Below, piece by piece: positions 27,701 through 30,700 of a stretch of 64,000 bases of DNA. The stretch's first letter is position 1. Every line of letters starts with the position of its first letter. This DNA comes from Escherichia coli (GTDB lineage: Bacteria; Pseudomonadota; Gammaproteobacteria; Enterobacterales; Enterobacteriaceae), in the NCBI RefSeq assembly GCF_041886205.1, contig NZ_CP169029.1. The stretch is one strand, 5' to 3'. The position numbers were made by a program.

Positions 27701-30700
27701 ATAATCTTGTTCATATAGGCAGCGGCTTGATTTTCATCTGTCGGGTAGCCTTCCATCTCTGGGGTGATGAACAAACGATATCCGCTGTAATCCGCTTTTC
27801 TTACCATCGTTACGGTCAACATGGCTGCGCCAGAGAGACGGGAGAGAACATAGGTGCCATTGGTTGTGGCGACATTTTCCACCGCAAAGAACGGCGCGAA
27901 GGAGCTGCCTTTACGACCATAATCCTGATCGGGAGCAAACCATACCGCTTCACCTTTCTTCAGTGCACCGACAATGCCGCGCAGATTATTTCTGCCGATC
28001 ATCGCTTTGTTAGAGCGCATGCGCCCACGGGTCTGCACCCATTCCATCAGCTGATTATTATGTGGACGATAGGTAGCCATCATTGGTTGGCACAGTCCCA
28101 TCACGCGGCCGCCCAGTTCCAGCGACATAAAATGGACGCCGACAACCATTACGCCGCGATTTTGCATTTGTGCGCGTTTAAGGTTATCCAACCCTTCAAC
28201 ATCAAACCATTTACGTACGCGACTGTCGGGCCAGAACCATGCCATGCCGGTTTCTACCAGCGCCATGCCGAGTGAACGAAAGTTTTCGGCAATCATCTTC
28301 TCGCGTTCTTCCGCAGAATGCTGCGGGAAACAAAGTTCCAGGTTTTTACGGGCGATAGATTCACGACGTTTCAGGAATGGTCGCGCCATTGCGCCAATAC
28401 GCGTGCCGAGAAAGCAGAGAACAGGATAAGGAAGCTGTACCCAAAGCCAGAGTACACCAAGCCCAAACCATGTGAGCCAGTAGCGAGGATGTAGAAACTC
28501 GCGGGAAAATTTGCATTGTGGAAACATAGTTACCTTCTGTAGATACGAATTGTTGTATCGCAGAAGATTCCATGTCGACAGCGGTACACTCAATTGGTTG
28601 GGCCATCATGTACGACAATGGTTCCTGTAAAGAGTGTAAAGACTAGTCAGGACATAACCACGAGGAGCATGAATGCGGTATCTGTACTTTATCACTCGCT
28701 GACTGCTTTCAGCTACTGATTATTAATCGTGCAAAGTAAATATTTTTCCGTACACAACAGTCTTGCATTTAACATGCTGTTTTCATTGATGCTTAGCAAA
28801 AATTGCCAGAGGTTAAGGATTGTCTTACTATTAAAGTGACTGAAGTTACAGGTTTTTTAGCGCGGCAGGAGGTTGAGCTATGATTTATTTATGGATGTTT
28901 CTCGCCCTGTGTATTGTCTGCGTAAGCGGCTACATCGGTCAGGTACTGAACGTGGTATCGGCGGTCTCTTCTTTCTTCGGCATGGTGATCCTCGCTGCAC
29001 TCATTTATTACTTCACCATGTGGTTAACTGGCGGTAATGAACTGGTGACGGGGATATTTATGTTTCTTGCCCCGGCTTGTGGCTTGATGATTCGCTTTAT
29101 GGTGGGGTATGGCAGGCGATAGTGGGTCAGGATGGCTCATTTGGGCAGGTGTTCACATCAGCATCAGACATGATTGTTCACCTACCATGTGACAGACGCT
29201 ATCGCACAGGATGAATAAAATAATTCGCCTTTGTCGGATAAGTAGGCGTGATTTCTTCTGTGAGGTTTAATGGTGGCGCATCTTCTCTCATCTTAAACAA
29301 AATCGCCTGTGATGGCTGAAGTTTTGTAGAGTGTGTGGTCGTCATCGCTGATGTTTTTTCAGTCTCTTTATAGCTCCTCTCACTTACACCACCAGAAATG
29401 GAAAATGCAAAAACATTGCATGCCATAATAGAGACCAATAAAAATAAGCTGAAAAGTATTAAGTTTACTTTCATAGAAAGTTATCCTGAAAATGGTTCAC
29501 TGAGAACCTACGATGTTATGGCTGTATTTACATATAATTAATCAATATTTACATCGATATAATAAATGACATCTCTTTGTGGTACATAAGAATAGTTCTC
29601 TGCGACAGGAAGCAGATTCCTACAATTGTAAGACTAAAATACTTCTTGCGATAATAACTACAACTGTAAGATAACCCTTTCAAAATGACCGTTGCTCTCT
29701 GATTTCTCATTTCATGCTCACCCAATATGATGGCGGCGTTTTCTAAAACTGTTAAAGAATGAGGTAAGTATGAAACGTTTAATTATGGCTACGATGGTCA
29801 CAGCAATTCTGGCATCTTCAACTGTATGGGCTGCTGATAATGCACCGGTAGCGGCACAACAGCAAACTCAGCAAGTTCAGCAAACCCAGAAAACGGCAGC
29901 AGCAGAGCGTATCTCTGAACAAGGTTTATATGCGATGCGTGACGTGCAGGTAGCGCGCCTGGCTCTGTTTCATGGCGATCCAGAAAAGGCAAAAGAACTG
30001 ACCAATGAAGCTTCCGCTTTGCTGTCAGATGACAGTACCGAATGGGCAAAGTTCGCTAAGCCAGGTAAAAAGACCAATCTCAATGATGACCAATATATTG
30101 TCATTAATGCATCTGTCGGAATTTCTGAGAGTTATGTAGCAACTCCCGAAAAAGAAGCCGCGATAAAAATTGCCAATGAAAAAATGGCGAAAGGGGATAA
30201 AAAGGGCGCAATGGAAGAGCTTCGCCTGGCCGGTGTTGGCGTAATGGAAAACCAATATCTGATGCCACTTAAACAGACTCGTAATGCACTTGCTGATGCG
30301 CAGAAACTGCTTGATAAAAAGCAATACTACGAGGCAAACCTGGCGCTTAAAGGTGCGGAAGATGGAATCATCGTCGATAGCGAAGCACTGTTTGTGAACT
30401 AATGCTGACAGGCAGTATATTGAGGTAAAGGATTTAACTCCCTCCAGCCGACAATTTTTTATGACCACAATACGACAGGTTGTGGTCATAAAATTATTTG
30501 GCGCTCGCGGTGCTATAAACTCGCATTTTATATTCCTCAAAGTAAACCGCAATAATCCCGTGTCATCACAAATCATTTATTATGTTATGTTTTATGGTAC
30601 GCTTTAAAAAGCGTAATCATACCCTTGCTTGTAAATCACCGGCGCTTCTTACAGTTGTAAGAATAACATCACAAATGTCGCGACTCTCTCTGATTACCAC

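What the first reader, a model, noticed from the sequence alone, without database searches (positions are those of the whole stretch)
29617..29634. Same 7-3-7 EvgA-type inverted repeat upstream of both yfdX and emrK
TCCTACA-N3-GTAAGA occurs at 29618-29633 upstream of yfdX and at 40640-40655 in the evgA-emrK intergenic region, matching the TTCPyTACA half-site reported for EvgA. This supports direct EvgA control of the yfdX-frc-oxc-yfdVE acid-resistance/oxalate cluster. The emrK site persists even though emrK is broken by IS903.
Basis: partly seen in the sequence, partly recalled or inferred. Interest (0 to 1): 0.3.

Follow-up and report, generated by a model that had tools for sequence, protein, structure and literature searches.

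The report
Known EvgA binding sites, acid-resistance promoters
The repeated motif is real and is the already-published DNA site where the E. coli acid-response regulator EvgA binds to switch on yfdX and emrK, so the finding is correct but ordinary, with a few unreported details around it.

Summary
The pattern TCCTACA-N3-GTAAGA occurs exactly twice in the window, at 29618-29633 and 40640-40655, against zero expected by chance. The window is E. coli: ypdI<->yfdX, frc-oxc-yfdV-yfdE, evgS-evgA<->emrK (split by IS903)-emrY.

Both sites are copies of the 18-bp EvgA palindrome TTCYTACA-N2-TGTARGAA, so the geometry is 8-2-8, not 7-3-7. Published work already treats yfdX, frc (yfdW) and emrK as direct EvgA targets, so this is already known.

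- A perfect box at 30646-30663 sits in front of frc, downstream of a strong terminator-like hairpin. This box, not the yfdX one, is the direct evidence for frc-oxc-yfdVE.
- A weaker second box lies at 29655-29672, 38 bp from the first.

All four boxes are conserved in divergent E. coli, and variation falls mainly on the central two bases.

Inferred and untested:
- Box 2, not box 1, lies in the same register as the boxes of frc, emrK, safA, ydeP and yegR relative to shared downstream elements.
- Box 1 read on the other strand has that register towards ypdI, which is co-induced with the EvgA regulon in two published datasets.
- About 8% of E. coli genomes carry a 38-bp duplication that gives three boxes.

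The parts
29617..29634 (.).
   Evidence: 1 mismatch to TTCYTACANNTGTARGAA. Identical in K-12 and L003. Only central position 10 varies among 6 alleles.
29655..29672 (+). EvgA box 2 (TAACTACAACTGTAAGAT), a weaker second site 38 bp downstream and proximal to yfdX
   Evidence: 3 mismatches. Kept at the same 38-bp spacing in K-12 and L003. Matches 5/5 held-out register columns of the other EvgA promoters, which none of 119 other registers does.
30646..30663 (+). EvgA box of the frc-oxc-yfdV-yfdE unit (TTCTTACAGTTGTAAGAA), a perfect palindrome
   Evidence: 0 mismatches. Also perfect in K-12 and L003. Only position 10 varies.
40639..40656 (+). EvgA box in the evgA-emrK divergent spacer (ATCCTACAGGCGTAAGAA)
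   Evidence: 2 mismatches. In L003 both mismatches are replaced by consensus bases. PemrK is described as a direct EvgA target (PMC5706723, citing Kato 2000).
29681..29704 (+). Fixed-register downstream elements of the yfdX promoter: CA at 29681-29682 and TCTGATT at 29698-29704, inside CTCTCTGATT 29695-29704
   Evidence: Same offsets from the box (9-10 and 26-32) in frc, emrK, safA, ydeP and yegR. Nearly invariant among alleles.
30672..30695 (+). The same fixed-register elements in the frc promoter: CA at 30672-30673 and TCTGATT at 30689-30695
40665..40688 (+). The same fixed-register elements in the emrK promoter: CA at 40665-40666 and TCCTCTG at 40682-40688
29726..29731 (+). Candidate -10 hexamer of yfdX (TATGAT); inferred, no transcription start data
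   Evidence: Consensus scan. Lies 62.5 bp from the box 2 centre, like the -10-like hexamers of the other EvgA promoters. Invariant among alleles.
30712..30717 (+). Candidate -10 hexamer of frc (TATCAT); inferred
40710..40715 (+). Candidate -10 hexamer of emrK (TAAATT), in a conserved block flanked by variable sequence; inferred
29559..29591 (-). Possible ypdI-directed promoter elements served by box 1: TCTTAT (29591->29586) and TATTAT (29564->29559), read on the minus strand; hypothesis only
   Evidence: Same offsets from box 1 (26-31, and 61.5 bp from the centre) as in the six EvgA promoters; 4/5 register columns. Both blocks invariant in 6 alleles.
30457..30493 (+). Terminator-like hairpin between yfdX and frc
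   Evidence: 15-bp stem. -21 kcal/mol, z = -5.4. Strain AR0349 carries a compensatory A>G / T>C change in the two arms.
29770..30402 (+). yfdX
   Evidence: NCBIfam NF007645, 375 bits; RefSeq annotation
29199..29474 (-). ypdI, divergent from yfdX
   Evidence: RefSeq annotation of identical DNA
30915..36146 (+). frc, oxc, yfdV, yfdE
   Evidence: NCBIfam equivalogs
36202..40414 (-). evgS (36202-39795) and evgA (39800-40414)
   Evidence: EvgA equivalog NF007419, 437.9 bits; annotation
40830..43059 (+). emrK interrupted by IS903 (41558-42614), with 9-bp target duplication ACCGGCACG at 41549-41557 and 42615-42623

Best explanation
The two sequences are binding sites for the response regulator EvgA, which is encoded in the same window. 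A dimer of phosphorylated EvgA is expected to recognise the two 8-bp arms of an 18-bp palindrome, TTCYTACA-N2-TGTARGAA, and to activate nearby sigma-70 promoters that lack a good -35 element. The window holds four such boxes: two in the ypdI-yfdX spacer, one in front of frc, and one between evgA and emrK. So yfdX, frc-oxc-yfdVE and emrKY are separate EvgA-dependent units.

Shown here: the sequence match, the positions, specificity against real and shuffled DNA, and conservation of the arms but not the centre.

Taken from the literature: EvgA binding and direct activation at yfdX, yfdW (frc) and emrK.

Inferred only: the yfdX-proximal weak box 2 holds the position relative to the core promoter that the single box holds at frc, emrK, safA, ydeP and yegR. 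That would put the box centre roughly 70-75 bp upstream of the start. The strong box 1 would then either help load box 2 or serve the divergent ypdI promoter.
For: The exact pattern occurs twice, with 0 expected. The 18-bp palindrome at up to 3 mismatches finds only 29617 (1 mismatch), 29655 (3), 30646 (0) and 40639 (2) in 64 kb, against 0.65 expected. It also lies upstream of K-12 safA (1 mismatch), ydeP (2) and yegR (1). No site with 2 or fewer mismatches exists in 1.41 Mb of unrelated loci. EvgA and EvgS are encoded in the window. All four boxes are conserved in K-12, two divergent strains and a lineage whose EvgS is 91% identical. Variable columns number 3 of 64 in the arms against 209 of 1005 in the background (p = 4e-4), and 4 of 8 in the central NN. 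Literature: PMC3720670, PMC5706723, PMC4283999. For the architecture: there are 5 invariant downstream columns across six promoters against a null mean of 0.21. Box 2 scores 5/5 on columns trained without it, while box 1(+) scores 2/5. Box 2 and the frc box share CAAATG and CTCTCTGATT at identical offsets.
Against: No binding or transcription-start data could be produced or read here. The primary papers (Masuda & Church 2003, Itou 2009, Kato 2000) are not in the library, so the consensus was recalled from memory and then validated empirically. Box 2 has 3 mismatches, a level reached 4 times in 1.41 Mb of background. The yfdX/frc and safA/ydeP promoter pairs look paralogous, so the register test uses fewer independent sequences than six. 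The -10 assignments are consensus guesses, and their distance from the box varies by about 5 bp between promoters. Box 1 and box 2 centres are 38 bp apart, about 3.6 helical turns, which is not an obvious same-face arrangement for cooperative binding.
Confidence: 0.9

Rival explanations
1. Box 1 alone is the functional yfdX activator site, as implied by the reader. Box 2 and the shared downstream elements would then be leftovers of common ancestry between the yfdX and frc promoters, with no role of their own.
For: Box 1 is much closer to consensus (1 against 3 mismatches). The yfdX and frc promoters share strings that could reflect paralogy. A -10-like CAAAAT lies 55.5 bp downstream of the box 1 centre.
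Against: Box 2's arms are conserved and its centre varies, like the accepted boxes. The 38-bp spacing is kept in all lineages. Box 1(+) is out of register with all other EvgA promoters, scoring 2/5. The stretch from box 2 to the ATG is the most conserved part of the spacer, with 5 of 75 columns variable.
Confidence: 0.3
2. The motifs are recognised mainly by another NarL/FixJ-family regulator such as RcsB, which controls yfdX in Klebsiella, rather than by EvgA.
For: Half-sites of this family resemble each other. The published RcsB pattern KMRGAWTMWYCTGS matches at 29609-29622 with 2 mismatches, overlapping box 1. RcsB regulates yfdX in K. pneumoniae (PMC6394985).
Against: That RcsB pattern gives 66 matches in the window against about 45 expected, so one overlap carries no information. 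The 18-bp palindrome tracks exactly the six EvgA-activated units. The literature attributes activation to EvgA.
Confidence: 0.03
3. The two matches are a coincidence of AT-rich intergenic DNA with no regulatory meaning.
For: The motif is short and the surrounding spacers are AT-rich.
Against: 0 of 100 shuffles gave even one match. There are no matches in 1.41 Mb of real background DNA. The arms are conserved against a 21% variable background.
Confidence: 0.01

Closest known systems
EvgA box of E. coli K-12: the 18-bp inverted repeat with half-site TTCPyTACA upstream of ydeP, safA(b1500)-ydeO, yegR, yfdX, yfdWUVE and emrKY (Masuda & Church 2003; Itou et al. 2009; Kato et al. 2000)
   Same: Same sequence, same genes and same positions. 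The K-12 boxes at yfdX (both), frc and emrK are identical to those in the window.
   Different: The sites themselves do not differ. The strain differs from K-12 only by the IS903 insertion in emrK. I could not find box 2, the fixed downstream register or the 38-bp copy-number variant described in the papers available to me.
BvgA binding sites of Bordetella (inverted heptads TTTCCTA at fha and bvg promoters); BvgA is the closest characterised homologue of EvgA. This comparison rests on my own knowledge and was not tested here.
   Same: Nearly the same half-site core (TTCCTA). There is a strong upstream inverted repeat plus weaker promoter-proximal sites, and the regulator is phosphorylation-dependent.
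   Different: A different organism and regulon. BvgA dimers are reported at about 21-22 bp spacing on one helix face, whereas the two yfdX boxes are 38 bp apart.
NarL 7-2-7 heptamer pairs (NarL/FixJ family). This comparison rests on my own knowledge.
   Same: A dimer of a helix-turn-helix response regulator on two inverted arms separated by 2 bp.
   Different: The NarL heptamer sequence (TACYYMT) and the NarL regulon are unrelated.

Membership tests
EvgA box (18-bp palindrome TTCYTACA-N2-TGTARGAA) | Sequence match to both arms with a 2-bp centre | tested here: met
   29617-29634 has 1 mismatch, 40639-40656 has 2, 30646-30663 has 0 and 29655-29672 has 3. The consensus was recalled from memory and then validated on K-12 safA, ydeP and yegR.
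EvgA box (18-bp palindrome TTCYTACA-N2-TGTARGAA) | Located upstream of a transcription unit induced by EvgA | tested here: met
   Positions relative to yfdX, frc and emrK. Induction of these genes by EvgA or constitutive evgS is reported in PMC4283999, PMC3720670 and PMC5706723.
EvgA box (18-bp palindrome TTCYTACA-N2-TGTARGAA) | The cognate regulator EvgA and kinase EvgS are present in the genome | tested here: met
   EvgA equivalog at 437.9 bits; evgS is a 1197-aa ORF.
EvgA box (18-bp palindrome TTCYTACA-N2-TGTARGAA) | Selective constraint on the arms but not on the central spacer | tested here: met
   3 of 64 arm positions vary against 209 of 1005 background positions (p = 4e-4), and 4 of 8 central positions vary.
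EvgA box (18-bp palindrome TTCYTACA-N2-TGTARGAA) | Physical binding of phosphorylated EvgA, and dependence of transcription on the box | not testable with these tools
   Reported in the literature for yfdX, yfdW and emrK, and seen here only through citing papers. The primary papers are not held.
RcsB box (KMRGAWTMWYCTGS, as used in PMC6394985) | Specific match to the RcsB pattern at the site | tested here: inconclusive
   One 2-mismatch match overlaps box 1, among 66 matches in the window against about 45 expected by chance.
BvgA-like multi-dimer promoter architecture | A strong distal inverted repeat plus weaker proximal sites on the same helix face reaching the -35 region | tested here: inconclusive
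   A TCYKATT element lies exactly 42 bp downstream of the distal arm in six promoters. The two yfdX boxes, however, are 38 bp apart, and there are no start-site or footprint data.

The most novel reading that the evidence does not exclude
The ypdI-yfdX spacer may be a bidirectional EvgA-controlled region. The weak box 2 (29655-29672) would be the site positioned to activate yfdX. The strong box 1 (29617-29634) would be positioned to activate the divergent gene ypdI, which is not listed as an EvgA target, and possibly to load box 2. Recombination between the two boxes has produced a 3-box allele, a 38-bp duplication found in 415 of about 5,400 E. coli genomes, that could change output from either promoter.
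Probability: 0.3. Interest if true: 0.3.

Novelty: already known. Interest (0 to 1): 0.15.

Why it matters
The core finding adds nothing new. EvgA control of yfdX, frc-oxc-yfdVE and emrKY is textbook for E. coli acid resistance, and PyfdX is already used as a standard EvgA reporter (PMC5706723). The side observations have practical value. People using PyfdX reporters or predicting EvgA regulons should know that the promoter carries two boxes, that natural alleles carry three, and that the box in register with other EvgA promoters is the weaker one. If ypdI is a direct EvgA target, the acid-sensing system would be linked to a lipoprotein annotated as a colanic-acid biosynthesis protein.

Tried and rejected
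1. I tried to read the primary papers (Masuda & Church 2002 and 2003, Ma 2004, Eguchi 2007). None is held, and full-text searches for the motif string found nothing useful. The consensus therefore had to be validated empirically.
2. The cross-species scan of genome contigs with EvgS was dominated by unrelated hybrid kinases at about 33% identity. It gave one true orthologous locus (L003) plus a 551-bp 97%-identical fragment, so no conservation test beyond E. coli was possible.
3. A search for a 1-box allele using a synthetic box1/box2 recombinant found none among the best hits; all align in two pieces.
4. An Rfam scan of the whole window found only tRNAs and nothing in the three spacers.
5. 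The RcsB pattern is too degenerate to be informative.
6. The simple sigma-70 scan gives several equally weak candidates per spacer and cannot fix the transcription starts.
7. Local alignment of the yfdX and frc upstream regions is not significant overall: score 28 against a shuffle maximum of 29. Only the in-register short blocks stand out.

Full report
**Observation.** The pattern TCCTACANNNGTAAGA occurs exactly twice in the 64-kb window, at 29618-29633 and 40640-40655 on the + strand. None of 100 dinucleotide-preserving shuffles gave a match.

**Context.**
- The window is E. coli. The 501 bp around the first site occur in 5,415 of 5,426 complete genomes and are annotated as the ypdI-yfdX spacer.
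- NCBIfam equivalog models identify the genes:
  - yfdX (29770-30402)
  - frc (30915-32165)
  - oxc (32219-33913)
  - yfdV (33983-34927)
  - yfdE (34962-36146)
  - evgA (39800-40414, minus strand)
- evgS (36202-39795, minus strand) is a 1197-aa ORF named from RefSeq annotation of matching genomes.
- emrK is split into 40830-41588 and 42628-43059 by an IS5-family transposase gene.
- The insertion is a complete IS903-type element: 41558-42614 (1057 bp), terminal inverted repeats GGCTTTGTTGAATAAATC, and a 9-bp target duplication ACCGGCACG.
- Only 5 of 5,426 genomes cover 80% or more of the IS-containing query, and the evgA-emrK spacer is identical to K-12. The insertion therefore looks recent, and survival of the nearby site carries no information.

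**What the motif is.**
- I recalled the published EvgA consensus as an 18-bp palindrome with half-site TTCPyTACA. The primary papers are not held, so I tested it directly.
- TTCYTACANNTGTARGAA with up to 3 mismatches finds four sites in the window, against 0.65 expected:

| Site | Coordinates | Mismatches |
|---|---|---|
| Box 2 | 29655-29672 | 3 |
| frc box | 30646-30663 | 0 |
| emrK box | 40639-40656 | 2 |

- In K-12 the same pattern lies upstream of safA (1 mismatch), ydeP (2) and yegR (1). It also lies at the four homologous places of the evg-yfd region.
- No site with 2 or fewer mismatches exists in 1.41 Mb of background DNA; four sites have 3 mismatches.
- The geometry is 8-2-8, not 7-3-7.

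**Literature.**
- PMC3720670 (Fig. [quoted passage not shown]
- PMC5706723 uses PyfdX-yfp as an EvgA reporter 'directly activated by phosphorylated EvgA' (citing Itou 2009). It uses PemrK as 'directly regulated by EvgA' (citing Kato 2000).
- PMC4283999 states that an EvgA binding site is found in all directly regulated genes.

- yfdX is followed by a strong hairpin at 30457-30493 (15-bp stem, -21 kcal/mol, z = -5.4). One strain carries a compensatory change in both arms.
- frc has its own perfect box, 260 bp upstream of its ATG. That box, not the yfdX one, is the direct evidence for EvgA control of frc-oxc-yfdVE.
- The yfdX promoter has a second, weaker box 38 bp downstream of the first.

**Conservation.**
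- I aligned the three spacers from the window, K-12, two divergent strains (M24, AR0349), strain 779, the GE3-type allele, and a lineage whose EvgS is 91% identical (L003).
- Variable columns:

| Position class | Variable columns |
|---|---|
| Arm positions of the four boxes | 3 of 64 |
| Background positions | 209 of 1005 |
| Central NN positions | 4 of 8 |

- Arms against background gives Fisher p = 4e-4. This is the footprint expected of a dimer that contacts the arms only, and it holds for box 2 as well.
- At emrK, the L003 lineage has consensus bases at both mismatched positions.

**Promoter architecture (inference).**
- I stacked six EvgA-dependent promoters on their boxes in the direction of transcription. 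Five further columns are invariant: C9, A10, T26, C27 and T31 counted from the box end. Within these lies a TCYKATT element exactly 42 bp downstream of the distal arm. The null mean for random registers is 0.21 invariant columns, and none of 5,000 trials reached 5.
- Training on frc, emrK, safA and yegR alone, box 2 matches 5/5 of these columns and none of 119 other registers does. Box 1 on the + strand matches 2/5.
- Box 2 and the frc box also share CAAATG and CTCTCTGATT at identical offsets.
- -10-like hexamers lie 57-62 bp from the box centre in all six promoters: TATGAT 29726-29731 for yfdX, TATCAT 30712-30717 for frc and TAAATT 40710-40715 for emrK. That would put the boxes near -70 to -75.
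- No start-site data were available. The yfdX/frc and safA/ydeP promoter pairs look paralogous, so this reading is suggestive, not proven.

**Box 1 and ypdI (hypothesis).**
- Box 1 lies 151.5 bp from the ypdI ATG and 144.5 bp from the yfdX ATG.
- Read on the minus strand, it is followed by TCTTAT at offsets 26-31 and by TATTAT 61.5 bp from the centre. That is the same register as above, matching 4/5 columns, which 3.4% of other registers reach. Both blocks are invariant among alleles. No other reverse orientation shows this.
- ypdI rises 5.5-fold together with yfdX, yegR, ydeO and emrK on glutathione exposure (PMC5811628). It rises by log2 2.75 in an evgS-constitutive mutant (PMC4283999 supplement).
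- Direct EvgA control of ypdI is therefore plausible but untested.

**Copy-number variant.**
- In 415 of about 5,412 genomes with a match, the spacer is 38 bp longer.
- The extra DNA is an exact duplication of the box-to-box interval. It creates a hybrid third box, TAACTACAATTGTAAGAC, as expected from unequal exchange between box 1 and box 2.
- No 1-box allele was seen among the best hits.

**Rivals.**
- Chance is excluded by the statistics and conservation above.
- An RcsB site cannot be supported. The published pattern is too degenerate, with 66 matches against about 45 expected.
- The main open alternative is that box 1 alone drives yfdX and box 2 is inert.

**Verdict.** The modest new content is the second box, the fixed downstream register, the possible ypdI link and the 38-bp polymorphism.

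Noticed in passing
L081:440-535 (strain GE3), homologous to window 29617-29672: An exact 38-bp duplication between box 1 and box 2 gives three EvgA-type boxes at 38-bp spacing. 415 complete E. coli genomes match this allele at 99% identity or more.
   Followed up: partly
window 30457-30493: A strong terminator-like hairpin lies between yfdX and frc (-21 kcal/mol, z = -5.4). Strain AR0349 has a compensatory A>G / T>C change in the two arms.
   Followed up: partly
L084:~611-661 (strain 779): A different strain carries an IS903B insertion inside yfdX itself, after about the fifth codon. The IS end GGCTTTGTTGAATAAATC follows ATGAAACGTTTAATT directly.
   Followed up: no
window 40630-40637: An extra half-site-like TTCTTACT lies immediately upstream of the emrK box, in direct orientation. 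It is not conserved; other strains have TTCTCAC or TTCTCAT.
   Followed up: partly
window 29558-29563 (+): A perfect TATAAT hexamer lies on the + strand upstream of box 1, overlapping the minus-strand TATTAT proposed for ypdI. It has no good -35 partner and reads AATAAT in L003.
   Followed up: no
window ~40411-40440 (-), homologous to K-12 evgL (L085:5730-5759): K-12 annotation places a 9-codon leader ORF, evgL, overlapping the start of evgA. The spacer in the window is identical to K-12, so the ORF is present here too.
   Followed up: no
L004 (551-bp contig labelled Terrisporobacter petrolearius): This contig encodes an EvgS fragment 97% identical to E. coli EvgS. It is most likely E. coli contamination in that assembly.
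   Followed up: no
H62, NZ_CP103739.1 (strain 3359): Only the first 77 bases of the 301-base ypdI-yfdX spacer query match, and no yfdX is annotated there. This suggests a deletion or rearrangement that removes the boxes in this strain.
   Followed up: no
window 4312-4706 (-), 7405-7477 (+), 61740-61811 (-): Six tRNA genes, including a cluster of four closely spaced ones.
   Followed up: no
window 41558-42614: The IS903 insertion separates the emrK promoter and its EvgA box from the 3' part of emrK and from emrY. EvgA-driven transcription should therefore run into the IS, and the EmrKY pump is presumably non-functional in this strain.
   Followed up: partly
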